Below, one piece after another: positions 5,228 to 17,004 of a stretch of 64,000 nucleotides of DNA. Position 1 is the stretch's first letter. The number at the start of each line of letters is the position of its first letter. The notes below the pieces were generated by a model. That model searched no databases, was not told where the DNA came from, and saw nothing but the letters and a program-made list of their open reading frames with translations. Source of the DNA: Vulcanimicrobiota bacterium (GTDB taxonomy: Bacteria; Vulcanimicrobiota; Vulcanimicrobiia; Eremiobacterales; Eremiobacteraceae); contig CAWDVP010000001.1 in assembly GCA_963805945.1 (NCBI GenBank), positions 1 to 64,000 of the forward strand. Reading direction: 5' to 3'. A program made the position numbers and the translations under genes.

Positions 5228-6794
5228 GATGGTTCGCTTTCCAGCATCGGCACGTGGCTATGGCCGTGGGCGTGGTCGTGGCCGTGCGCATGCACGTGAC
5301 CGGGTGAGAACGCATAGCCCCCGATCGCGGCGAGCACCAATGCCGTCACAAGCGCCGCATTGGTATGCAGCGTCGAAGCGACGGCGCCTTGGCCGAGCAT
5401 GACCGCGCCGATCAGCGCGATGACGCTGGCGGAGACGAGCGGCCCGTATTGCACGAGCCTGTCGAAACTCGGCCGCTTCGAGAGCCACGACGCGCCGTGC
5501 ACGAGCGCGATGCCGAGACCGGTGAGCACGCCCGCGAGGCCGATGCTGAACGCGACGATGACGAGCAGCCCGTAGCCGAGCTGGTGGAGGGTCAGCGCGG
5601 TGAGCAGACACGACGAGCGCCGCCGGGCACGGCGCGATGTTGCCGCTCATGGCGACGAGCACGACGCTGCCGAACGACAGCGGCGCCGTGCCCGGCGGCA
5701 CGTGCTGGTGGCCGCCGGCGTGGACGTGCGCGGCGCCGCCATGAGATGCTCGTGATCGTGCGCGTGGTCCTCGCCGCGCCGCGTCTTGATGTAGCGCGAT
5801 AGCGCTTGCGCGCCGATCATCGCGACCAAGGCGCCCGAGGCGAGCGTGATCCACGGATAGATGTTCTCGGGGACGATCCATTGCGCGGCGGCGAGCATGA
5901 CGAGCCCGAGCGCGAGGACGCCGGCGGTGTGCGCGAACGTCAGCGCGGCCGCGAGAATGAACGCCTGCTTCGAAGTCGCGCGGGCGCCGACCAGCGACAC
6001 CGCGAGCAACGTCTTGCCGTGTCCTGGTTCGAGGGCGTGCAGCGCGCCGAGGCCGATCGCCATGACGAGGGTGAGCAGCACGAGCCACGGATTCGCCGCG
6101 CCTTTGGCGAGCATGTCGGAGAGCGCGTTGGAACGCACCTGCGAGGGCGCGGCTTGCGCAAGACCCGAGCTTCGCTCGGGCTTACAGAGCACGGTCGGTC
6201 CATGCCTGGTGCGCGAGGACGCGCCCGTCCGGCGCAAGGGTGCGGCGACCACGCTGACGTCGCGCGGGGAACTCAGCTCGCGCTTGGGTACGACCGCAGC
6301 TCGCGCGTGGGCTCGGTGTCGGGCGCGATGACGATGTCTTTCCAGCCGATGCGCCCGGGATAGGTGTCGTCCGCGATCGTAATCGGCGCGGCGCGCGCGA
6401 GCGAGGCAGGTCGGCATGGAATTGCTCGACCCAGTACAGCGTGGGCAAACCGCCGGCGCCGGGCCGGGTGGCGACGCTCGGCGCAGAAGCGCGCAGATCG
6501 AGCGCGCGGCCGTCGACCGCGACGGCGAGTCCCGCCTTGACGATGGCGATCTCGTCGGCCGCCCAGCGCGCCAGCAGCGCATCGCGCTGCGCACCGTCGA
6601 TACCGCGCTCGCGCATGATCTGAAACGTCGGGATCTCGGCGATGTCGAGCACGTAGATCAGATCGAGAGCGCTCGCCGCTTGTGCGCGCCTTGACGAGAT
6701 GGTTGATGGTGAAGTTGCCGAGCGGATGCGCGGCGGCCGGCGAGCCGACGCCCACGGCGAGCACCAGCGCGAGGCACAGGATCGCGTTTCTCAT
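5224..6794 (-). CDS. RcnA-like Ni/Co transporter with an N-terminal extracytoplasmic domain; frameshifted
   Basis: Signal peptide then AHPLGNFTINH; GALHALEPGHGKT, TFAHTAG, PCPAALVV; His-rich loop and His-rich C-tail HVHAHGHDHAHGHSH. Confidence 0.85.
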
Positions 6795-6841
6795 GCTAGG
6801 CTGATAACGGATCGGAGGGCGCGCACCGGATGGCCCGGGGC

Positions 6842-8742
6842 CTACTTGAGCGGGTGGGGCTTGTCGATGTAGTCGCTGTACACCAGGCCCGCGGCGATCT
6901 CCATGGATTCGGTCAAGAGGGATTTCTGAAGCGCCATGTCCTGGCACGTATCTCCGGTCGTATGGACCTGGTCCATGAGCTGGTCGACCGGCTGTTTGGT
7001 CTCGTACGACAGCCACGCCAGGCAGCCGATCTCGCCCGACGGCACGCTCGTGCGCATAGCCGGTCGCGAAGTCCGGCGTCGCGACGCCCGGGAATCGGAA
7101 AGCCAGCGCTCGGCGATATGCTTCATAACGCTCCGGCGACGAGGTGAGATCGAGCAGCGAGATCTGCGGCGGAAAGCCAGCGGCTCTGCGCGGCGTAGAT
7201 GCCGTTGTCGGCTTGCAGCGCGAGCGCCTCCACGCCATCCCAGGCCGTGCGGGCCTTGTCGAGTGCGGCTTGCACCTTCGGCATATCCGCGTTCTTGATG
7301 TCGCCGGACGTGGTGTTGAGGCTGTCGAGCACGACGAAGTAGTCCTTGAGCACGGCCATCGCGTCGGCCGCGGCGGTGATCGCGGCGCGCGAGCGGTCGA
7401 CGCTTCGGACGAGCTCGTCCGAGCCGGTCGAGAGTTGGGAGGCGATGGCCGGATAGTACGGCAGCACCGACTGCGTCGCGGGCGTCGGCGATCCGTCGCG
7501 CAGTTTCTCGCTCATCTCGTGCAGCAGTACTTGGTTGTCGCGCAGCAGGCTGGGCGCGGTGGCCATCACGTCGGAGGTCAGGCCGAGCGTGCCGTTCACG
7601 TCGATGACGAGCCGGTCGAGCCCGGCGATCGCGATCCCGACATTGCTCTGCGGACTCTTCGGTTGGGGCAGGCTCGGCACGCCGCCGGACAGCCCGTTCA
7701 ATTGCGTGAAGAGCGTTTCGGCGTCCTGCCCGCCAGCTTTCGCCTGCGCGTCCGCGATCGTCGCATCGTTGGCGGTGATGCTCGCCGCGGTCTGGACGAG
7801 CGAGGCCATGGCGGCCTTGCCCATCGGGTCATACTCGAAGGTGTTGTCGGTGCGGGTATCCGCCGCGGCGCGCGCGCCGGCGGTCCGCAAAGCGATCTCC
7901 GCTGAGGCGAGCTGCTGCGCGGCGAGCGCGTCGTCCGGGTGCGCCTTGACGACCGGCGTGAGCTCGGCCGCCACGTACGAATATCGCCCTTCGTGCTCGT
8001 CGTGCACGGCTTGCGCGGTGAGCTGATCGACGGTCGGCTTGTCGAGCTGCGGATAGCCGAGCAGATGCGAGATGCGGTCAGCGGGGACCGGGTGATCGAG
8101 CATCGCTTTGTCGACCTTGCTCTCCGGCGCGCTCTCCAGCTTGGCCAAGTAGTCCATGAAGTCGACCATCGCGCGCGGGTTGTAGCCGGCGCGCGACATG
8201 AGCAGCAGGCCGTATTGGTCGGCCTGCAGCTCGTCTTGGCGGGAGAACTTCTCCATCGCCAGCTCGCCGCCGTAGCCGCCGAGCATGTCCGCGATCGGCG
8301 AGAGGATCGAGAGCACGCCGATGAGCACGCCGAGGATATCGCTCTTCTCCTGCAGCGTGACGGCATGGCGCCGCTCGACGTGGCCCATCTCGTGCGCCAT
8401 GACGCCGGCCAGCTCGTCATCGGACGACACCGCGTTGAGCAGGCCCATGTCCACGTGCACGAAACCGCCGGGCAACGCGAACGCGTTGATCTCGTCGGAG
8501 TTGATGATCGAGAACGTGTAGTTGATATCTTCGCGCGCCCGGTACTGGGCGAGATTCGCGCCGACGCCCTTCACCCATGAGTTGAGGAAGGGATCGTCGA
8601 CGAGCAGGCTCTCGCGATCGACCTGCTTGCTGATCTCCGCGCCCAACGAGACCTCTTTGGAGGTGCTCATGGCCGCCGCGGGCAGCGGAGCGATGAGGTT
8701 CAGCGCGAAGACGAGGAACAGGGCGGCGGCGGTGAGGCGCAT
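6842..8742 (-). CDS. M48-family zinc metalloprotease (BepA/YfgC-like) with a long helical C-terminal region; frameshift near 7150
   Basis: Signal peptide, INAFALPGG, HEMGH, FSRQDELQAD, DHP..RI. Confidence 0.88.
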
Positions 8743-8778
8743 GGGCTGGACGGTTTCGACCCGCTTTCCGCGGCGGCC

Positions 8779-9330
8779 CTATGACTTGCTGATGGTCTCG
8801 AGGTTGGTTTTGAGGACCTCGGGCGTCATGAAGCCGCGATACATGACGCGGATGACGCCGGCCTTGTCGATGAAGACGCTTTCCGGCAGCGACTGGATCT
8901 CGTACGCCTCGGTGAGCGGGCCTGGATCCAGCACGACGAGATACGGGATCTTGAAGCGCCCGAGGAAGGGCTTGACGAGCTCAGCATCTTCTTGCGCGTC
9001 GACGCCGATGTAGACGACTTTATCCTTATACTGAGGATAGCTGGCGACGATGCCCGGGAGTTCTTGCTTGCACGGCGGGCACCAGGTCGCGAACGTGTTG
9101 ATGAACACCGGCTTGCCCTTGAACTGCGCGAGCGAGACCGCTTTTCCGTCCACGTCCTTGAGCGTGAACGGCGGCGCAGGTTCGCCCACCTTCGCCTTCG
9201 CCGCGCCGCCGGACCCGTTCGTGCTGGTCGCCTGTTTTCCGGCGCAGCCGCTGAAGACGACTACTGCCATGAGCAGCGCCATGCCGACCATCGTGGGCCG
9301 TATGGGATGTCCGTCTGCGTCGCGTGCCAT
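8779..9330 (-). CDS. TlpA/ResA-family thiol-disulfide oxidoreductase (probable lipoprotein)
   Basis: FATWCPPCKQELP; lipobox-like FSGC. Confidence 0.9.
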   Translation of the reverse strand: MARDADGHPIRPTMVGMALLMAVVVFSGCAGKQATSTNGSGGAAKAKVGEPAPPFTLKDVDGKAVSLAQFKGKPVFINTFATWCPPCKQELPGIVASYPQYKDKVVYIGVDAQEDAELVKPFLGRFKIPYLVVLDPGPLTEAYEIQSLPESVFIDKAGVIRVMYRGFMTPEVLKTNLETISKS

Positions 9331-9402
9331 GGCCGGTCGGGCTTCTGCGGGGTCGACACCGACTCTTGCCCCAGCGCAAGGAGGCACGCGGTCACGCGCG
9401 CT

Positions 9403-11309
9403 CTATGCGCCGGCGGCGGTGAGGATCAGATCCGTTCCAAGGCCTAGCATGAAGCCGAGGAACACGCCCACCGTGGCGAATTCTTTATAGCCGATGCGGC
9501 CTCCGGCCTTGGTCATCTCGCCGATGACGTAGATGATGGCGCCCGCCGCCAGCGTCAAGAACAGCACGGACAGCGTCGGGGAGACGAAATGATAGCCGAC
9601 GAGCGTGCCGAGAAAGGTCGGCGCGCCGCCGATCAGGCCGAGCCGGATGATGTCGCCGATACCGGCTCTCACGTCCGAGCCCGCGAGCGGCGCGGCGATG
9701 CCGAAGCCTTCGGTCATGTTGTGCAGGCCGAAGCCGATGATGAGCAACACGGCGAGCTGGATCGCACCGGTCGCCGCCGACTGGCCGATCGCCAGCCCCT
9801 CGCTGAAATTGTGCAGGCCGATGCCGAGCGCGATGGTCGTCGCGAGCGCCATGGGGCTGAGCATCCCGCCTTCTGCGACGGCGGCGCGCTGCTTGCTCAG
9901 CACGAGTTTCGAGAAGTAGACCAGGCCGACGAGCCCGACGCCCAGACCGACGACGTATACCGCGGTGAGCCATGCGAACGGTCCGACGCCGAAGCCCTGG
10001 CGCATCTTGTCGAGCGCGTCGACGATCGGCTCGCCGGCTTGGCGCAAGATATCGAAGAGCAGGAAGAACAGCACGCCGACCGCGATCGCGTTGAGGAACG
10101 CGAGCCAGTGCCGCGGCACGCGGCGCAACGCCGCGAACGGCAGGCCTAAGAAGATCGTGAAGCCGGCGATCGCGCCGAGGATGAGCGTCTGCATCTGCGA
10201 CATCTTCGGTCCGCTCTCGCCCGACGCGCTCGGCGGCGCCATCGCCATCGCGTCTTGGGACGCCATCAGCGCGAAGCGATCCGGCGCGCCTTCGTACTGC
10301 ACCGCGGAGACGAGCCCGCCCGGGCCGCGATCGCCGTTCATCATGTGATCGGCCACGTGGCAATGGAACATCCACGTGCCGGGTTGCGCGTCGGCGACGA
10401 ATTCGATGTCGCGCGTCTCGCCGGGTCCGAGCGTCACCGTGTCCATCATCTGCCGTGCCGCTGGCGCGACGGGTTGCCCGTCGACCGCGACGACCGCGAA
10501 ATGGTGGCCGTGGAGATGCATCGTGTGGAACTCGGTGCCGCTGATATCGATCTCGCGGACGCGGATGCGCTCGCCCTGCTTGACGACGAACGGCTTGCCG
10601 AGCGGATAGCTCTTGCCGTTGATGCTGAAATAGTTCTCGCTCGTGCTGTAGATCTTCCACGACGAGATGAGCATGAGATAGTCGCGCGCGGGGGCCGGCC
10701 CGGCCGGCGTGCGCGGCTCGACGACGACCGCGCCGTAGAGTCCGCGGTCGAGCTGGTTGAGATCGTCCACGTGCGTGTGGTAGATGTACGTGCCTGGCTG
10801 GCGGACGACGAACTGGTAGACGAAGCTTTGGCCCGGTGGCACCGGTCTGCTGGCTGAAGCCGGGCGTGCCGTCCATATCCGGCGGGCACGTTCATGCCGT
10901 GCCAATGGATGGTCGTCGGAGCCGGCAGATGGTTCGTGAACTCGACGCGCAACGTATCGCCTTGGCGCACGTGGATCGTCGGACCCGGCACCGTGCCGTT
11001 GTAGGTCCATGCGTCGGTGGTTATCCCTGGCGCAGGCGTCCAGCGTTTCACCTCCGCGATGAGGCGGATGGTCTTGACCGGACCCGGCGTGAGCGCCGGC
11101 AGTGACGGCAGCAGATCGTAGTCGCGCTGGGCATCGGCTTCCGCCTGCGTGACGACGTCGCGTGAGACGTCGGCGGCCACAGGACCAGGGGCGGCGGATG
11201 CGAGGTCGGCCGCACACACAGCACCCGTGCTGAGCGCGCCGAAACAGATCGCGGCAGCGGCGGCAAGGGCCGCCGGCAGCATTCGCCGGTCGAGCGAGCG
11301 AGCGGCCAT
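9403..11309 (-). CDS. Two-domain multicopper oxidase fused to a C-terminal ZIP-family metal transporter; frameshift near 10870
   Basis: Signal peptide; Cu motifs TIHWHG, YHTH, HTMHLHGH, WMFHCHVADH; continues in frame through a Met-rich linker into ZIP TMs with GLHNFSEG and GLHNMTEG. Confidence 0.8.
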
Positions 11310-12059
11310 CTATCGTGCTTTCGAAGCGGGCTTGCGCCGGATGCTTGACGAGGATCGCGCCGGCGAGCTGCGCGCTCACCGAGTGGGTCTTACCGTTGAC
11401 GCGCAGCGTCATGAATCCGATGCGCGCGCTCGACGCGCTCGACCGCGATCGTCGTGCCCGGCCGCAAGCCGATCTCCGCGAGATACTTGAGCAGCTCGGG
11501 CATGTCGTGCTTGATCTCGAGCACCTTTGCGCTTGCGCCCGCGGGCAGATCGACCAGCTCGACGGCGTCCTCGTGATTCCAGAGCGCACCGTCCTCGTGC
11601 GGGATGGGATGGCCGTGCGGACAGGTCGTAGGCTCGCCGGTGAAACGCGCGAGATGCCGTTCCACGAGCGGGGAGATGGCGTGCTCCAAGCGGCAGGCCT
11701 CTGCGTTGGCGAATTCCCACGGGATGCCGAGATGATCGACGAGCAGCCGCTCGGCGAGCCGTTGACGGCGCAGGGTGAGCGCGCCGATGCGCGCGCCGGC
11801 GGCCGTCGGGAACACGCCGTGACGTCCCTCGTGCGTGACATAGCCGTCGGCGTCGAGTTTCTTGAGCATGGCCGACGCGGAGGCGGCCGAGACCGCCAAG
11901 CTCCGCCGCGATGGCGGAGGTCGAGACGGGCTCGACCCCGTTGTGCAGCCGCACGATCGTCTTGAGGTACATCTCGACGTTCGGGCTGACCTCGGGTTCT
12001 TCCGAAGGCTCCAAGAGCGGGCTCTTGAGCGCTGAGTTGAGGGCGCGCTGAGTGCTCAT
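11310..12059 (-). CDS. DtxR/IdeR/MntR-family metal-dependent repressor with C-terminal FeoA/SH3-like domain; frameshifted
   Basis: EMYLKTI, VSAASASAMLKKL, RLAERLL..EACRLEHAIS, TCPHGHPIP, LKYLAEIGLRPG. Confidence 0.92.
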
Positions 12060-12073
12060 TTAGGCTCGCCTAA
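12060..12073. promoter_or_regulatory. Putative DtxR/MntR-family operator TTAGGCTCGCCTAA
   Basis: Inverted repeat TTAGG-N4-CCTAA directly abutting the repressor's ATG. Confidence 0.7.
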
Positions 12074-12220
12074 TTCGCTTCCTTAGGAGTGGTTATCCTG
12101 TGACCTCAAGGGCGCCTTATGACTCTCCTCGAGGCGTCCCGCTGCGAAATGGGTATAAGGGTGGTACGCAACGGCACAGGCTGACGGTACGTTACCTTAC
12201 TAAGGAGATTAGAAACACTT

Positions 12221-12694
12221 ATGAATCACACGAGAATCATCGCAGTCGCCATCATCGGAGCCCTGGTTTTGGCGTTCGCGCCGAAGCCCATGGCGCTCGC
12301 GGACGGTGCGGCGAGCACGCGGAACATCATCGGCGGCGCCGCCGCGATCGGAGCCACGCTGCTCATCATCAACCACAACAAGAAAGTGCACGAGAAGTAC
12401 GCGCAGGACGCGCAACAGCAGGCCGCGCTCGCCGAACAGCGCGACAACGCGCAGGCGGCCGCGCAGCAATACAAGATCGCCTACCAGCACGAGGCGATCG
12501 TCGTGTCCAATATGAAGCGCGAAGTCGCGCTGCAGGATCAAGAGATCAATAGTCTCAAGGCGCAGGTGGCCTCGGTCAACCCGGCTGGCTCGAACTTCGT
12601 CGCCGCCCGTCCGGCGGTGGCAGTGGTGCCTGCGACGAACTCGATGGCGCATGCACCGGTCCAAGTCGTATCCTACGGCTGGGGCATGTTTTGA
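12221..12694 (+). CDS. Hypothetical exported protein (signal peptide, Gly/Ala hydrophobic segment, coiled coil)
   Basis: Strong SD taaggag; MNHTRIIAVAIIGALVLAFA; Q/A-rich heptads; C-terminal YGWGMF. Confidence 0.8.
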   Translation: MNHTRIIAVAIIGALVLAFAPKPMALADGAASTRNIIGGAAAIGATLLIINHNKKVHEKYAQDAQQQAALAEQRDNAQAAAQQYKIAYQHEAIVVSNMKREVALQDQEINSLKAQVASVNPAGSNFVAARPAVAVVPATNSMAHAPVQVVSYGWGMF

Positions 12695-13062
12695 ACGTGC
12701 GCGCACGACTGCTGATCGCCTGCCTGCTGACCGCCGGCCTCGTCGCCTGCGGCCAGCATAGCGGGTCGAGCCCGCAAGACGTGGCCACCTCGGTGACGCA
12801 GGCGGTCTACAACAACGATCAGGCCGGTACGACACAGCACTTCGACGACGCGCTGAAGGCACAAGTGACGCGCACACAAGTCGCGATGATCTCGGATAAG
12901 ATGCACGAACTGGGCGATTTCCAGGGCCTTACCGAGACGAAGAGCGATGCAGACACGCGGCAGTATTGGTACGACGCCAAGTTCAGCAAGGGCGACATGG
13001 TCGTCGAGCTGAAGTTGCATGCAGACGGAACGGTGGCCGCGTACCGCGTCATTCCGAAGTAG
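12691..13062 (+). CDS. Small lipoprotein (DUF3887-like)
   Basis: Lipobox LVAC; 4-nt overlap with the upstream gene; followed by a terminator. Confidence 0.7.
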   Translation: MNVRARLLIACLLTAGLVACGQHSGSSPQDVATSVTQAVYNNDQAGTTQHFDDALKAQVTRTQVAMISDKMHELGDFQGLTETKSDADTRQYWYDAKFSKGDMVVELKLHADGTVAAYRVIPK

Positions 13063-13083
13063 CGTCGCGCAGACGCCGACGAG

Positions 13084-13118
13084 GAAGGGACGAGCGACGC
13101 TCGCCCCTTCTTCTTTTT
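13084..13118 (+). terminator. Intrinsic terminator
   Basis: GAAGGGACGAGCG-AC-GCTCGCCCCTTC stem followed by TTCTTTTT. Confidence 0.7.
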
Positions 13119-13153
13119 GCAATGCCGCCCGGCGTGAGGTCTCTCGCTCGGTC

Positions 13154-15148
13154 ATGCGTATCGTTCTCGCGGTTTCAGCCTTGGCGCTCGCGCTGCTCCC
13201 TGTTGCGGTCGCGGCGCGCACCATGCAGGTGAGCGATCTGCGGTGCCATCGTCGAGCGTGTCCGATCCGGATATCTCCCCGGACGGCGCGCAGATCGCGT
13301 TCGTCGTCTCGCGACCCGATTACGCGGCCAACGACACGGCGACCGAACTGGCGGTCGTCGACATCGCGAGCGGCGCGCAGCGCAGCCTCGTGCAAGGCCG
13401 GCGTGATCATCGCGTCGCCGCGCTGGTCGCCTGACGGCAAGAGCATCGCGTTCATCGCGACGGGCCGGCGAGCAGGATCAACTCATGCTGGTCGCCGCCG
13501 GCGGCGGCGCACCACATCCGATGACCGACGCGCGCAACGGCGTGACGCAGTTCGCGTGGTCGCCCGACGGCGCGACGATCGCGTTCGTCACCGCGGACGT
13601 CCCGAAGAACCAGGCGGCGATCGACCAGCACCATGATTCGTTCGAGGTGGGCAACGACAGCTACCTGACGACGGCAGCGCCGACGTCCGCGCACCTGTGG
13701 CTGGTTGCCGCGGCGCGGCGGCCCGGCGCGGCGCCTCACCTCCGGCGACTGGACCGTGACCGGCGGCGACTATGTCGCGCCGCTCTCGTGGTCGCCTGAT
13801 GGGCGCTACATCCTCATCTCCAAGTCGCCGAGCCCGCACCTCGGAGATTACAACGGCACGGTGCAGGCGCTCGTCGACACGCGCGACGGGCATGTGCGCC
13901 AGTTGACGCAGCACAGCGGCTATGAAGGCTATGGCGTCTTCTCGCCGGACGGCACGCAAGGTCGCCTACTGGTACCCCAAGGACGGCGATCCGCTCAACG
14001 GCTCGCAGATCTACGTCGCGCCGACACAAGGCGGCAACGGCAGCTGATGTCACGTCGCCGCTCGATCGCGATATCGCGCGCGCGATATGGATGCCCGACG
14101 GCGCGACGCTGCTCATCGGCGCCACCGATGGCACGCGCGTGTTCCTGTGGCTGCAGCCGCTCGACGGGCCCGCGCGCAAGCTCGACCTCGGCGAGATCAA
14201 CCCGTCGTGGAGCAACTGGGTCGACGTCACCGTCGGCCGCAACGGGTCGATCGCGTTCAGCGGCGCCGAGCCCAAACGGCCGACCGAGCTGTACTACCTG
14301 AGCTCGCCGACCGCCAAGGTGCGCCGCCTCACCGACTTCAATCACGACATCGCGGCGCTCGAGCTCGGGACGACGGAGACGATCTCGTGGCGTACGGCCG
14401 ACGGGATGACGGCAGACGGCGTGCTCACCTATCCGCCGGACTATGTGAAAGGCAAGCGCTATCCGCTGCTGGTGCGGCATCCACGGCGGCCCCAACCTCA
14501 CCTCGACGACCGAGTTCTACGATTTCGCGCAGGTCATGGCGGCGCACGGCTACCTCGTGTTCCGACCCGAATTACCGCGGCAGCGACAACCTCGGCAACG
14601 CCTACGAGCACGCGATCTTCAACGATGCGGGCGAAGGGCCGGCGCAGCGACATCGTGGGCGGCATCCAGGTCGTCCAAGCGATGGGCGTCATCGATGACT
14701 CGAAGATCGCGGTGGGCGGGCTCTCGTACGGCGGCTTCATGACGGCCTGGCTGGTCGGGCATTATTCCATCTTCAAAGCGGACGTCATGGCGGGCGCCGC
14801 AGCTCGACGCGCTGGAGCAATACGATCTCGGCGATTACAATGTGGCGGAGTGGTACTACTTCAAGGGCTCGCCGTGGGTGCGACCGGAGCACATGGACGC
14901 GTATCGCGCGCAGTCGCCGATCACGCTACGCGAGCCAGATCAAGACGCCGACGCTCATCGTCTCGAACGCCGGCGACGAGCGCGTGCCGATCTCCCAATC
15001 ATACGCGATGTTCCATGCGCTGCGCGACAACAGCGTGCCGGTGAAGTTCGTGGTGTTCCCCGGGGAGACGCATGAGATCGAAGGCCCGGTGCACATCGAG
15101 GACTACTTCCAGCTGTGGCTGGACTGGCTGGGCACTTACCTCAAGTAA
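13154..15148 (+). CDS. S9-family (prolyl oligopeptidase/acylaminoacyl peptidase) secreted serine peptidase; many frameshifts
   Basis: Signal peptide; WSPDG propeller repeats; HGGP, NYRGS, GLSYGG nucleophile motif, DERVP, FPGETH. Confidence 0.88.
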
Positions 15149-16138
15149 CCGACGACCTCGTCGAGCCAGCGCCTCTTCTGCTCGTCCGGGGCAAAGGACG
15201 CGACGAAGCCGTTGCGCGCCAGCTGCGCGAGCAGCTCGCGCGAGAAACCGCGCTCGCCGAGCGCCGCGTATTCGTCGAGCAGCGAGACGCCGAAGAAGCC
15301 CGGGTCGTCCGAGCTGAGCGTGACGAGCAGCCCTTCGTTGAGGAAGTCGTTGAGCGGGTGGCGTCTCCGGGCGCCTGACGGCGCCGGTGACAAGATTGCT
15401 CGTCGGGCACGCGTCGATCGCGATGCCGCGCGCGCGCAGCATCTCCATCACCGAGCGCTCCTGCCGCGCGCTGACGCCGTGGCCGATGCGCTCCGCGTCG
15501 AGCAGCTCGACCGCATCGGTGATGCTGCCCGGCCCGGCCGCCTCGCCCGCGTGGACGGTGCGTCGCAAACCCAGCTCGCGCGCCTTGCCGAACGCGCCGC
15601 GGAAATCGCGCGCGGGGAAGTTCCGCTCGTCGCCGCCGAGCCCGACGCCGATGACGTCGTACGCGCGGCAGCGCTGCGCCAGCGCGATATCTTCGTATGC
15701 CTCCGCCTCGCCGAGATTGCGCACCATGTCGAACAGCACGAGCGACGAGATGCCGGATTCCCGCTGCGCGTTCGTGCGCGCGTCGTGGATCGCGCGTACG
15801 GTGGCTTCGAGGTCGAGATCGGGGACGAACTTGCGCTGGGTCGCGGGCGACATGAAGAATTCGACGTGACGGACGCCGTTGCGCGCCGAGGCGCTGAGGT
15901 ACTCGTAGGCCAGCTCCGCGAAATCGGCCGGCTGGCGCAGCGCGCGCACGACCCGCAAGAACGCGCGCAGGAACGAGTCGAAGTCATGGCACGCGAAGAG
16001 CTTGGCGGCGTCGTCGCCGACCTCGATGTTGTTGCGCCGCGCGATGCGCGCGTAGCTCTCGAGCGTGATGGTGCCTTCGAGGTGGACATGGAGCTCGGGC
16101 TTGGGCAGTCCGCGGATCCACTCGCGCGACTCGCTCAC
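15136..16138 (-). CDS. add: Adenosine/adenine deaminase; frameshift near 15370
   Basis: LPKPELHVHLEGT, TVHAGE, AERIGHG, CPTSN, SSDDP. Confidence 0.92.
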
Positions 16139-16964
16139 TTGCTCCTGAACGATCGCAGATAGCCGAGGGTCTGGCGGTCGATGCAGCCGTCGTCGCGCAC
16201 GCGGTTCTCGAGGTTCTCGCGATGCATGAACTCGACCAGCGTCGGAGAGCCGGCCTTCGCTATGAGCGACGCGATCTCGCGGCTGAGCGCGTCGTCAATC
16301 TTTATGAGGTCCTCCGGCGCCGCCTTGAAATTGTACAGCTTGTGGAGCTCGAGCAGGCGCGCGAGCTCCTCGATCGGGTTCGGGATGGTCGTCAACGCGG
16401 AGATCGACGTAGCGGTCGTTGAAGCCGCCATAGCCGCCGTCCGGCTTGGCGATGTAGAGCGCCGCGCTCTGTTTGCCGCGCCGGTCGCCGCCGGCCGCTT
16501 GGCCGGCGCGCAAGCGCTGCGACGAGCCGATCGGCGAGATGTCCGCGCGACGTCGTGAATGTTTCGACCATCGAGTCGACGACTGCGGCAGCGGCGAGGA
16601 TGTTCCCCTGCGCTGCGTAGTTGACGCCGTGTCTGCCGCCTGCCCAGTCCATGCACTTCGATCCGGTGTATGTCGCAGACCGGCCGTGCGCGTCGACGAT
16701 TCCGACCTGGCGTTCGTCGGCGTGCTCGTCGTCGCCGACAAGGTCGCGGATCACTTCCTCGGGCGCTTTGCCGAGCCGCAGCATCTCGAGGCCGCGCGGA
16801 CCGTAGTTCGTGTTCGCCCACGCCTGCGTCGCGATCGCGCCGACACCACCCTCGACCCATGGCACTGCCGAGCCGACGGAAAGGAACTTCGACTGCACCG
16901 CGACGCCGAGTTCGTTCGCGTCGGGATCGCGGCCGACTATGGAAAAAGTCGATGGCACGGGCAT
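16135..16964 (-). CDS. DUF1028 (Ntn-hydrolase-like) protein; frameshifted
   Basis: [53 protein letters not shown]. Confidence 0.9.
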
Positions 16965-17004
16965 GCGGGGCAGGTACGCTTTGCGCACCCGTGGTACCTA
17001 TGCG

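What the first reader, a model, noticed from the sequence alone, without database searches (positions are those of the whole stretch)
9403..11309. Multicopper oxidase fused to a ZIP metal transporter: a candidate single-polypeptide oxidase-permease
Seen: an exported two-domain MCO. HWHG and YHTH lie in domain 1; HTMHLHGH and HCHVADH lie in domain 2, so the type-1 Cys is only in domain 2, as in type-B small laccases. The ORF runs without a stop through a Met-rich linker (LMASQDAMAMAPP..KMSQM) into a full ZIP domain. The ZIP metal-site motifs are HNFSEG and HNMTEG, lacking the usual Pro of HNxPEG. Known: oxidase-permease iron uptake pairs an MCO or cupredoxin with an Ftr1-type permease (fungal Fet3/Ftr1, bacterial FtrABCD), whereas ZIPs carry divalent ions. 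I do not know of a characterised MCO-ZIP fusion. Inference: the extracytoplasmic MCO is tethered to the outward-facing ZIP N-terminus and may set the redox state of Fe, Mn or Cu at the pore, or oxidise Cu(I) via the Met-rich linker. The likely axial type-1 position is Leu (GPGGL) rather than Met, which could raise the potential.
Basis: partly seen in the sequence, partly recalled or inferred. Interest (0 to 1): 0.85.

Follow-up and report, generated by a model that had tools for sequence, protein, structure and literature searches.

The report
Copper oxidase fused to ZIP transporter
A group of uncultured soil bacteria makes one protein that joins a secreted copper-dependent oxidase to a ZIP metal-import channel and puts it under an iron-type metal sensor, so it looks like an unstudied way of coupling metal oxidation to metal uptake.

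Summary
The fusion is real. In this window, however, 9403-11309 is not one ORF. Two single-base insertions (about 10877 and 10846) split the oxidase over three frames. These are almost certainly assembly errors, because 6 of 8 neighbouring genes are split the same way.

More than 100 intact relatives of 566-643 aa carry the same MCO-then-ZIP order. They occur in three families of the window's class of Eremiobacterota/Vulcanimicrobiota. A second family has the reverse order, ZIP then MCO (24 sequences). Its ZIP domains have a separate origin (AU test p 0.0085).

The gene follows a DtxR-family repressor that has the iron-type Met/Cys ligands. A TTAGG-N4-CCTAA operator precedes the operon, or the fusion gene itself, in 26 of 28 loci. 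The same genomes keep a separate Asp/Glu MntR-type paralog beside Nramp.

Best reading, at moderate confidence: iron-starvation-induced, oxidase-coupled metal uptake that uses a ZIP in place of Ftr1. The rivals are Cu(I)-to-Cu(II) uptake, supported by the conserved Met-rich linker, and a redox gatekeeper role.

This scan had already noted the same fusion on other DNA. My searches found no paper describing it.

The parts
12060..12073 (.). Palindromic operator TTAGGCTCGCCTAA (TTAGG-N4-CCTAA), directly upstream of the regulator's start codon.
   Evidence: It is the only perfect-arm site in the 2.3-Mb genome. The same motif is the only match in 26 of 28 related loci, always just upstream of the operon or of the fusion gene.
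12081..12098 (.). Second, weaker operator-like element containing CCTAA (minus-strand GGATAACCACTCCTAAGG).
   Evidence: Seen by eye in the upstream regions of 7 f1 loci printed. Not scored statistically.
11310..12059 (-). DtxR-family regulator gene (winged-helix, dimerisation/metal and FeoA/SH3-like domains). Split over three frames in the window.
   Evidence: Pfam. tblastn pieces at 12059-11895, 11869-11423 and 11421-11338 in three frames. Met10/Cys102/Glu105/His106 equivalents in VEMYL and EACRLEH.
11211..11309 (-). Signal-peptide-like N-terminus MAARSLDRRML...GAVCA.
   Evidence: The model of relative P0005 has an N-terminal helix at residues 2-22. A twin-Arg occurs in 3 of 11 relatives read, so it is not a conserved Tat signal.
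10878..11210 (-). N-terminal extension and first part of MCO domain 1, including HWHG (10896-10907).
   Evidence: (Cu-oxidase_3, 4.6e-17).
10846..10877 (-). Frameshift zone. Extra bases at about 10877 and about 10846 put MDGTPGFSQQ in a frame of its own.
   Evidence: (relative lacks one base at 10879).
10288..10845 (-). Rest of MCO domain 1 (YHTH, 10771-10782) and domain 2 (HTMHLHGH, 10504-10527; HCHVADH, 10345-10365; PGGL, 10312-10323).
10189..10287 (-).
   Evidence: pLDDT is below 50 at residues 348-361 of the model. Met makes up 9.0% of the linker against 2.7% of the rest. 81 of 86 sequences have 2 or more Met, and 64 of 86 have MxM or MxxM.
9403..10188 (-). ZIP domain with 8 predicted TM helices. 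Metal-site motifs HNFSEG (9796-9813, TM4) and HNMTEG (9706-9723, TM5). Stop codon at 9403-9405.
   Evidence: (BbZIP structures, E 1e-10).

Best explanation
The gene encodes one membrane protein. A cleavable signal peptide sends a two-domain multicopper oxidase to the outside of the cytoplasmic membrane. All four copper-site motifs are intact. The type-1 copper lies in domain 2, and the canonical axial position holds no Met. About 30 flexible, Met-rich residues tether the oxidase to the outward-facing N-terminus of an 8-helix GufA/ZupT-like ZIP permease whose metal-site residues are intact.

The gene is the second gene of a two-gene operon behind a DtxR-family repressor. That repressor's primary metal site has the Met/Cys ligands typical of Fe(II) sensors such as IdeR and DtxR. 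A TTAGG-N4-CCTAA palindrome marks the promoter.

The inferred mechanism is as follows. When the sensed metal, most likely Fe(II), runs low, the repressor leaves the operator and the fusion protein is made. The oxidase then acts on the metal at the mouth of the permease, and the ZIP domain carries metal into the cell. This is the logic of an oxidase-permease such as yeast Fet3/Ftr1, but with a ZIP in place of Ftr1 and with both parts on one chain.

Shown here: the fusion, its conservation, the motifs, the fold, the operon, the operator and the ligand pattern. Inferred: the metal, the direction of coupling, and trimer formation by the oxidase.

The window's own copy is broken only by two single-base insertions, which are most likely assembly errors.
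For: Fusion is real and old:
- 125 MCO-then-ZIP proteins among the 404 fetched.
- Matches in 276 of 401 genomes of the phylum at E <= 1e-20: family f1 28/29, f2 229/297, f3 5/5. By my hand count about 208 have best E <= 1e-100. All but 6 of the roughly 150 printed rows span both halves in one open frame.

Recurrent coupling:
- 24 sequences have the reverse order, ZIP then MCO.
- A tree that holds all fusion ZIP domains together is rejected (p-AU 0.0085).
- An unfused MCO-ZIP pair lies beside a DtxR-family gene in a Gaiellaceae genome.
- MCO1+ZIP adjacency in ammonia-oxidising archaea is on record (PMC7785015 passages; PMC5817080 table note).

Intact catalytic and transport residues (invariant in 86 sequences):
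- H130, H132, H174, H256, H259, H261, H310, C311, H312, H316
- H494, N495, E498, H524, N525, E528

Fold:
- AF2 mean pLDDT 84.4, with 8 TM helices.
- Foldseek matches to the two-domain MCOs 2zwn, 3g5w and 3gdc at target TM-score 0.78-0.84.
- A ZIP profile matches the BbZIP structures at E 1e-10.

Regulation:
- The regulator lies directly upstream on the same strand in 4 of 4 f1 loci plus the window, with a gap of -4 to +80 bases.
- The operator is the only motif match in 17 of 18 f1 loci and 9 of 10 f2 loci.
- The regulator's best solved relative is IdeR (1fx7, 4.7e-27), with Met10, Cys102, Glu105 and His106 conserved.
- The IdeR review states that Met10 and Cys102 raise Fe(II) selectivity, that MntR has Asp/Asn and Glu at those positions, and that IdeR subunits read CCTAA repeats (PMC10317159 passages).
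- Each of the 5 genomes looked at also has a paralog next to an Nramp gene. In the 4 f1 genomes whose N-terminal motif was covered by the match, that paralog has Asp/Glu ligands.

Genome context: Ftr1 was found in 0 of 5 genomes. The fusion is the only ZIP match in the window's genome.
Against: - ZIP transporters are known to carry divalent ions (established knowledge). Oxidising Fe(II) would remove the usual substrate. Nothing here shows that this ZIP takes Fe(III).
- The conserved Met-rich linker, and Met317/Met318 next to the type-1 His, are hallmarks of Cu(I) handling (recalled from CueO, PcoA and Ctr1). They are not typical of ferroxidases.
- No ferroxidase-type acidic substrate site was demonstrated.
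- The regulator lacks the ancillary-site His79 and His98 (Gln; Asn/Ser/Tyr/Gly). It also fails both NCBIfam equivalog cut-offs (MntR 116 of 350, DtxR 96 of 290).
- In 4 of 5 f2 genomes the best unlinked homolog has Glu at position 10 together with Cys102.
- Stand-alone ZIPs of this subfamily in other phyla sit beside regulators that lack the Met/Cys pair; most have MntR-like Glu/Asp ligands (20 of 77 loci). The Gaiellaceae MCO-ZIP pair has an Asp/Glu regulator. Manganese control is therefore the rule outside this clade.
- Each genome also has a Fur-family gene that could be the iron sensor.
- No expression data exist.
Confidence: 0.4

Rival explanations
1. Copper route. The Met-rich tether collects Cu(I). 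The oxidase converts it to Cu(II), as CueO does. The ZIP imports Cu(II). This is the model proposed, but never tested, for the MCO1 + ZIP gene pair of ammonia-oxidising archaea.
For: - The linker is Met-enriched in all 86 sequences (9.0% against 2.7%) and 64 of 86 have MxM or MxxM.
- Met318 beside the type-1 His316 is conserved in at least 90% of sequences.
- Some reverse-order fusions also have Met-rich linkers (P0125, P0293).
- The archaeal hypothesis is stated in PMC7785015 (passages).
- The best NCBIfam matches of the oxidase are the copper-resistance MCO and CueO, both far below cut-off.
Against: - No DtxR-family regulator is known to sense copper (established knowledge). The IdeR review says Cu(II) does not activate IdeR.
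- Control by a Fe/Mn-type repressor does not fit a copper importer.
- The Met-rich stretch could simply help load copper into a Sec-exported oxidase.
- No copper chaperone, CopC/D or P-type ATPase was seen beside the gene in 14 loci.
Confidence: 0.2
2. Redox gatekeeper. The ZIP imports its ordinary divalent substrate (Mn, Fe, Zn). The tethered oxidase removes a competing or toxic reduced ion (Fe(II) or Cu(I)) at the pore mouth, which sharpens selectivity or protects the cell.
For: - This ZIP subfamily is a stand-alone importer in many phyla. It is often next to MntR-like regulators (20 of 77 loci).
- The Gaiellaceae MCO-ZIP pair has a Mn-type regulator.
- Under this reading ZIP chemistry stays conventional.
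Against: - In the window's family the linked regulator has the Fe-type Met/Cys site, while manganese has its own MntR-Nramp pair.
- 3-4 Nramp genes per genome already provide Mn/Fe import.
- A gatekeeper would not need covalent fusion in both orders.
Confidence: 0.15
3. Laccase-type action on organic matter. The oxidase attacks phenolic or hydroquinone ligands of soil metals. This releases bound metal, or generates semiquinones that reduce Fe(III) to Fe(II), next to a conventional divalent ZIP.
For: - No axial Met at the canonical position, as in high-potential laccases (recalled).
- The closest solved structures are annotated as two-domain laccases.
- The known habitats are organic soils (record titles; names).
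- This reading reconciles an oxidase with a divalent-ion importer.
Against: Entirely inferential. No substrate pocket was analysed. It explains neither the Met-rich linker nor the tight metal-type regulation any better than the other models do.
Confidence: 0.08
4. Artefact or decay. Either the fusion is two genes merged by an indel at the CTGATG junction, or the window's copy is a genuine pseudogene.
For: - The assembly is indel-prone.
- The gene carries two frameshifts.
- CTGATG is present at 10264-10269.
Against: - The junction is in frame in 125 independent relatives from many assemblies and sources.
- The linker varies in sequence but never in frame.
- The frameshifts are single inserted bases of the kind that split 6 of 8 neighbouring genes.
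- One of them is absent from a close relative's contig.
- Apart from the two shifts the protein is 86-87% identical to intact relatives over its full length.
Confidence: 0.05

Closest known systems
MCO1 + adjacent ZIP permease of ammonia-oxidising archaea (Kerou 2016 as cited; PMC7785015 passages read; PMC5817080 table note read)
   Same: A two-domain multicopper oxidase without axial Met (Leu reported for MCO1) is genetically coupled to a ZIP-family permease. The function is unproven, and an oxidase-then-import model has been proposed.
   Different: In the archaea there are two separate genes; here there is one polypeptide, and in two different orders. The proposed archaeal metal is copper, whereas here the control elements are Fe/Mn-type. 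I could not test sequence homology to the archaeal pair. None of the named hits among the 120 closest stand-alone oxidases is an ammonia-oxidising archaeon; most of the 120 carry no name.
Fet3p/Ftr1p of yeast and the bacterial EfeUOB / FtrABCD systems (ferroxidase-permease iron uptake)
   Same: An extracytoplasmic copper oxidase or cupredoxin is paired with a membrane permease and switched on by iron shortage. Fet3p also lacks an axial Met (recalled).
   Different: The permease here is a ZIP, not Ftr1 (FTR1 found in 0 of 5 genomes). The oxidase has two domains, not three. The two parts are fused. Ferroxidase activity and Fe(III) hand-over are not shown.
Two-domain multicopper oxidases mgLAC (2zwn), Nitrosomonas blue copper oxidase (3g5w), 3gdc and SLAC-type small laccases
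   Same: The fold matches (target TM-score 0.78-0.84, 27-36% identity) and all four copper motifs are present. The type-1 site is in domain 2, as in type-B (SLAC-like) enzymes.
   Different: The closest solved relatives carry the type-1 Cys in domain 1. None of the top solved two-domain matches (288-348 aa chains) includes a membrane domain. The loop after the type-1 His is longer (HxMNxxxxPGGL).
ZupT / GufA-subfamily ZIP transporters and BbZIP
   Same: Eight TM helices, with TM4 and TM5 H-N-x-x-E-G metal-site motifs. A profile matches the BbZIP structures at E 1e-10.
   Different: Ser/Ala and Thr replace the usual Pro. It is not a ZupT ortholog (46 bits against a cut-off of 252). It is fused to an oxidase. 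Stand-alone members of this subfamily occur in Chloroflexota, Actinomycetota, Dormibacterota and others.
IdeR / DtxR iron-dependent repressors
   Same: The three-domain architecture, the primary-site ligands Met10, Cys102, Glu105 and His106, and an operator built from inverted CCTAA repeats.
   Different: The ancillary-site His79 and His98 are replaced. The operator has two CCTAA repeats in a 14-bp palindrome, not four in 19 bp. It scores below the NCBIfam DtxR and MntR cut-offs.

Membership tests
Multicopper oxidase, two-domain type | Four copper-binding motifs (HxH, HxH, HxxHxH, HCHxxxH). | tested here: met
   HWH, HTH, HTMHLH and HCHVADH are in the window. All the His and Cys residues are invariant or at least 90% conserved in 86 relatives.
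Multicopper oxidase, two-domain type | Two cupredoxin domains with the fold of solved two-domain MCOs. | tested here: met
   AF2 model of the 87%-identical relative P0005 (pLDDT 84.4). Foldseek matches 2zwn, 3g5w and 3gdc at E 1e-24 to 1e-26 and target TM-score 0.78-0.84.
Multicopper oxidase, two-domain type | Homotrimer with the trinuclear copper cluster between subunits. | not tested
   Inferred only from the solved relatives.
Type-B two-domain MCO (type-1 copper in domain 2 only) | Cys of HCH in domain 2 and none in domain 1. | tested here: met
   Alignment to 2zwn and 3g5w. Their domain-1 HCH aligns to our HTH, and their domain-2 HDH aligns to our HCH.
ZIP (Pfam PF02535) | Score above the Pfam gathering cut-off (35.1 bits). 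| tested here: inconclusive
   Window protein 24.3 bits and P0124 33.3 bits (below cut-off). P0125 38.0, P0293 41.0 and P0275 39.7 bits (above cut-off).
ZIP (Pfam PF02535) | Eight TM helices, and TM4/TM5 metal-site residues matching a solved ZIP. | tested here: met
   Eight helices at residues 366-628. A profile of stand-alone relatives matches BbZIP (5tsa, 8ght, 7z6m) at E 1e-10. In that alignment LHNfsEG aligns to LHNlpEG, and HNatEG aligns to QDvpEG.
ZupT (NCBIfam NF003243 equivalog) | Score above the curated cut-off (252 bits). | tested here: not met
   45.8 bits. It is a distant subfamily, not a ZupT ortholog.
Ferroxidase-permease iron uptake (Fet3/Ftr1, EfeUOB, FtrABCD) | Ftr1-type permease. 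| tested here: not met
   The permease is a ZIP. PF03239 was found in 0 of 5 genomes, 84-98% complete. The protein may work like this system but is not a member of it.
Ferroxidase-permease iron uptake (Fet3/Ftr1, EfeUOB, FtrABCD) | Iron-responsive expression. | tested here: inconclusive
   A regulator with Met/Cys ligands and an operator of CCTAA repeats. There are no expression or binding data.
Ferroxidase-permease iron uptake (Fet3/Ftr1, EfeUOB, FtrABCD) | Fe(II) oxidase activity of the copper protein. | not testable with these tools
   Needs an enzyme assay.
Archaeal MCO1 + ZIP unit | Sequence homology of both halves to the archaeal genes. | not tested
None of the named hits among the 120 listed is an ammonia-oxidising archaeon; most carry no name.
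IdeR/DtxR iron sensors | Primary-site ligands Met10, Cys102, Glu105 and His106. | tested here: met
   VEMYL and EACRLEH are present in all regulators linked to the fusion in family f1.
IdeR/DtxR iron sensors | Ancillary-site His79 and His98, and the NCBIfam DtxR cut-off. | tested here: not met
   Gln79, and Asn/Ser/Tyr/Gly at position 98. 96 bits against a cut-off of 290.

The most novel reading that the evidence does not exclude
ZIP permeases have been recruited at least twice, in opposite orders, as the fixed partner of a two-domain copper oxidase. This creates an Ftr1-independent oxidase-permease in which the metal can enter the ZIP pore only after a redox step at the tethered enzyme. The oxidase must trimerise to form its copper cluster. 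The working unit would therefore be a three-oxidase cap over three ZIP pores, an arrangement not known for any ZIP.
Probability: 0.3. Interest if true: 0.8.

Novelty: new variant of a known kind. Interest (0 to 1): 0.65.

Why it matters
Oxidase-permease metal uptake is known only with Ftr1-type permeases. The MCO-plus-ZIP gene pair of ammonia-oxidising archaea has stayed an untested guess.

A covalent fusion that is conserved across a class of uncultured soil bacteria and has arisen in both orders is strong genetic evidence that a copper oxidase and a ZIP work together. It also offers a single gene that can be expressed and assayed.

The answer would show whether ZIPs can be redox-gated, and which metal is involved. 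It would also tell how abundant soil bacteria that lack Ftr1 (0 of 5 genomes; the FeoB search was inconclusive) acquire iron.

Tried and rejected
- **Reads.** The one search for public runs found a single soil metagenome run holding 6% of the sampled words, and no RNA holder was listed. Laid on the window, it gave only contigs of a relative, not of the source sample. The two frameshifts therefore could not be checked at read level, and the second (about 10846) lies at a contig end.
- **Docking of the oxidase domain on the ZIP domain** (complex prediction): no verdict (score 0.00, mark 0.32).
- **Regulon in the window's genome.** Only the operon's own operator has perfect arms. The 3 one-mismatch sites are at the level of shuffles (3.4 expected).
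- **Other operator sites in five f2 genomes**. They lie before an Nramp gene, before an unknown 371-373 aa protein and near a FAD monooxygenase. They are too few to name the metal.
- **Taxon of the reverse-order fusions.** Cluster look-up gave no organism names. They were not found in 5 genomes of other classes of the phylum, where only the oxidase part matched. They were also not found in the 151 genomes sampled from the phylum of G401.
- **FeoB**. The matches (best E 5e-13) look like other GTPases rather than FeoB, and the family also rings in all 14 control genomes. Result: inconclusive.
- **Conserved neighbours in family f2.** None across 9 loci.
- **Tat export.** A twin-Arg is in the window's signal peptide but in only 3 of 11 relatives read, so it is not a conserved feature.
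- **Stand-alone ZIP loci.** No oxidase within 6 kb in 0 of 77.
- **Literature.** Four searches found no paper describing the fusion. Subscription journals and the supplements of the archaeal papers were not seen.
Full report
**What is in the window**

The gene lies on the minus strand from 11309 to 9403.
- HWHG, 10896-10907
- YHTH, 10771-10782
- HTMHLHGH, 10504-10527
- HCHVADH, 10345-10365
- GPGGL, 10312-10326
- a Met-rich linker, 10189-10287, containing CTGATG at 10264-10269
- HNFSEG, 9796-9813
- HNMTEG, 9706-9723

The stretch is nevertheless not one ORF. The N-terminal frame makes sense only up to HWHGMNVPAG. A second frame carries MDGTPGFSQQ. A third runs from PVPPGQSF through the rest of the oxidase, the linker and the whole ZIP domain to the stop (P0001, 483 aa). 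Intact relatives read HWHGMxVPADMDGTPGFSQAPVPPGQSF. The window therefore differs by one extra base near 10877 and one near 10846.

**Artefact or pseudogene**

I compared ten predicted proteins of the same-genus locus L016 with the first 24 kb of the window. Eight found a counterpart, and six of those are spread over two to four frames, always shifting in the same direction. The neighbouring regulator gene is split in the same way.

The assembly has only 8 contigs but is 82% complete. This pattern fits an uncorrected long-read assembly.

The one public run that shares sequence with this stretch holds contigs of a 90-95% identical relative. Those contigs lack one base at 10879, 11335, 11423 and 11898. 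Source-sample reads could not be found, so this remains a strong inference rather than proof.

**The fusion is real**

A search with the junction-spanning 483-aa piece returned 120 listed relatives. Of these, 112 are 562 aa or longer and cover 99-100% of the query at 53-87% identity. Where a source names them, they are Candidatus Eremiobacteraeota, Eremiobacteraceae or Vulcanimicrobiaceae.

In 401 genomes of the phylum, 276 have a match at E <= 1e-20 (f1 28/29, f2 229/297, f3 5/5). By my hand count about 208 have a best E <= 1e-100. All but 6 of the roughly 150 printed rows span both halves in one open frame without stops. These tallies include 9 genomes flagged as unpublished.

Five genomes of other classes of the phylum hold only stand-alone oxidases.

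**Anatomy**

An AF2 model of the 87%-identical relative P0005, built on 86 sequences, has mean pLDDT 84.4. It shows:
- an N-terminal helix (2-22)
- a beta-rich oxidase (about 35-335)
- a low-confidence linker (348-361 below 50)
- eight long helices (366-628)

Foldseek places the oxidase with the two-domain MCOs 2zwn, 3g5w, 3gdc and 7rab (target TM-score 0.78-0.84). In the sequence alignment to 2zwn and 3g5w, their domain-1 HCH aligns to our HTH, and their domain-2 HDH aligns to our HCH.

All copper ligands are invariant or nearly so in 86 sequences. The canonical axial position (His+5) holds N, P, K, D, S or G, so there is no axial Met. Leu327 is invariant and Met318 nearly so. I could not read model coordinates, so I cannot say which of them packs against the copper.

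The ZIP half scores below the Pfam cut-off in the window's protein (24.3 against 35.1). However, a profile of stand-alone relatives matches the BbZIP structures at E 1e-10 with the TM4 and TM5 metal-site motifs aligned. The H, N and E of both motifs are invariant. It is not a ZupT ortholog.

The linker varies in sequence but is always Met-rich: 9.0% Met against 2.7% elsewhere, 81 of 86 sequences with two or more Met, and 64 of 86 with MxM or MxxM.

**Evidence that the two halves work together**

Among all 404 proteins fetched, 125 have the order MCO then ZIP and 24 have the order ZIP then MCO (Pfam for P0125, P0129, P0293, P0275 and P0287). In the sequences I read (P0125, P0129, P0293) there is no extra membrane helix between the two parts. 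Both orders thus place the oxidase at an outward-facing end of the ZIP, given the N-out/C-out ZIP topology (established knowledge).

In a tree of ZIP domains, the two kinds of fusion form separate clades with stand-alone ZIPs between them. A tree holding all fusion ZIP domains together is rejected (p-AU 0.0085). The caveat is that I named the group after seeing the tree.

In the quick oxidase tree the main reverse-order clade is also separate, while P0125 groups with the forward clade. Deep branches there are weak.

A Gaiellaceae genome carries an unfused pair. A Tat-type two-domain MCO with its type-1 site in domain 1 is followed by a ZIP with an N-terminal extension, and the pair is divergent from a DtxR-family gene.

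The adjacency of MCO1 and a ZIP permease in ammonia-oxidising archaea is on record, with an untested copper-uptake hypothesis (PMC7785015, passages; PMC5817080, table note).

**Regulation**

In the window and in 4 of 4 loci of its family, a DtxR-family gene lies directly upstream on the same strand, with a gap of -4 to +80 bases. It has winged-helix, metal/dimerisation and FeoA-like domains.

A palindrome, TTAGG-N4-CCTAA, lies just before that gene. At one mismatch or fewer, its only matches in about 285 kb of related loci fall in two places:
- upstream of the regulator in 17 of 18 family-f1 loci. Three genomes are represented twice, and the one miss lacks the upstream DNA.
- 26-73 bases upstream of the fusion gene itself in 9 of 10 family-f2 loci, where no regulator is adjacent.

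In the window the site is 12060-12073, and it is the only perfect-arm site in the genome.

The regulator's best solved relative is IdeR (E 4.7e-27), with Met10, Cys102, Glu105 and His106 conserved. According to the IdeR review (PMC10317159, passages):
- the two sulfur ligands raise Fe(II) selectivity
- MntR proteins have Asp/Asn and Glu at those positions
- each IdeR subunit reads one CCTAA repeat

Each of the five genomes examined also has a second paralog beside an Nramp gene. Where the N-terminal motif was covered, that paralog has Asp and Glu at these positions. Manganese therefore appears to have its own sensor-importer pair, and the Met/Cys paralog is the one tied to the fusion.

Several points argue against a firm iron call:
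- His79 and His98 are replaced.
- Both NCBIfam cut-offs are missed.
- Four of five f2 genomes have Glu10 with Cys102 in their best homolog.
- Stand-alone ZIPs of this subfamily in other phyla sit next to regulators without the Met/Cys pair, most of them MntR-like (20 of 77 loci).
- A Fur-family gene is present.

Ftr1 was found in 0 of 5 genomes. The FeoB search was inconclusive. Nramp is present in 3-4 copies. The fusion is the only ZIP match in the window's genome.

**How it most likely works**

Shown:
- an exported, apparently competent copper oxidase tethered to the outer end of an apparently competent ZIP
- expression from a promoter that carries the operator of a DtxR-family repressor

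Inferred:
- The repressor senses Fe(II).
- The protein is made under iron shortage.
- The oxidase changes the redox state of the metal at the pore mouth.
- The oxidase is a trimer, so that three ZIP domains are held together.

I put about 0.4 on oxidase-coupled iron uptake. That reading uses the Fet3/Ftr1 logic with a ZIP as the permease. The rivals, with my odds:
- Cu(I)-to-Cu(II) uptake, about 0.2. The Met-rich linker and the Met beside the type-1 His are its best evidence.
- A gatekeeper that removes a competing reduced ion, about 0.15.
- A laccase acting on organic ligands, about 0.08.

**Comparison and novelty**

It may work like a ferroxidase-permease but is not a member of that family, because the permease is a ZIP. 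It is the fused counterpart of the archaeal MCO1+ZIP idea, although homology to the archaeal genes was not tested. I found no paper describing the fusion (subscription journals and supplements were not seen).

This scan had noted the same fusion twice before on other genomes, and an unfused manganese-type pair once. I reached the operator, the regulator ligands and the class-wide spread from my own calls, and they agree with those notes.

I rate it a new variant of a known kind, with interest 0.65.

Noticed in passing
window 5300-17000: The assembly carries roughly one single-base insertion per kb. Six of eight genes compared with a same-genus locus are split over 2-4 frames. Any ORF-based reading of this window needs frameshift-tolerant searches.
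   Followed up: yes
window 12221-12694 (+) and 12691-13062 (+): Two small conserved genes without Pfam families, one secreted-looking and one lipoprotein-like. They are divergent from the regulator-fusion operon and share the operator-bearing intergenic region in 4 of 4 family loci. They may be co-regulated.
   Followed up: partly
L114:361-1476 (-) and L116:365-1486 (-): An unknown 371-373 aa protein without any Pfam family has the same TTAGG-N4-CCTAA operator 15-25 bases upstream of its start in two f2 genomes.
   Followed up: partly
L113:1501-2830: A one-mismatch operator site lies about 40 bases upstream of an Nramp gene in genome G145.
   Followed up: no
G071:C2:131823-134194; G134:C1:2215813-2217541; G041:C18:163350-165028; G306:C1:66728-68424 and 436092-437825; G097:C1:1311159-1312980: Every genome examined has a DtxR-family paralog directly beside an Nramp gene, which reads as an MntR-MntH pair. 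Asp/Glu ligands were seen where the N-terminal motif was covered. In G071 a Fur-family gene lies next to it.
   Followed up: partly
L145:3674-7626: A Gaiellaceae locus holds a Mn-type DtxR gene divergent from a Tat-signal two-domain MCO (type-1 site in domain 1), followed by a ZIP with an N-terminal extension. The ZIP is itself frameshifted in that assembly. A cation-diffusion-facilitator-like gene lies beside them.
   Followed up: partly
proteins P0187, P0260, P0192, P0255, P0146, P0236: Other fusions of related oxidases to membrane or envelope modules occur among database representatives: DUF4396+MCO, DUF2269+MCO, outer-membrane-efflux-protein+MCO and SLH+MCO.
   Followed up: no
window 8779-9387 (-) and 7123-8742 (-): A TlpA/redoxin-like gene and an M48 peptidase follow the fusion gene on the same strand. 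The redoxin is kept nearby in 2 of 4 family loci and the peptidase in 4 of 4, but other genes intervene in relatives.
   Followed up: partly
protein P0126: A 304-aa stand-alone ZIP with its own signal-peptide-like N-terminus nests inside the fused clade in the ZIP tree. Either the oxidase was lost secondarily or the gene is split.
   Followed up: no
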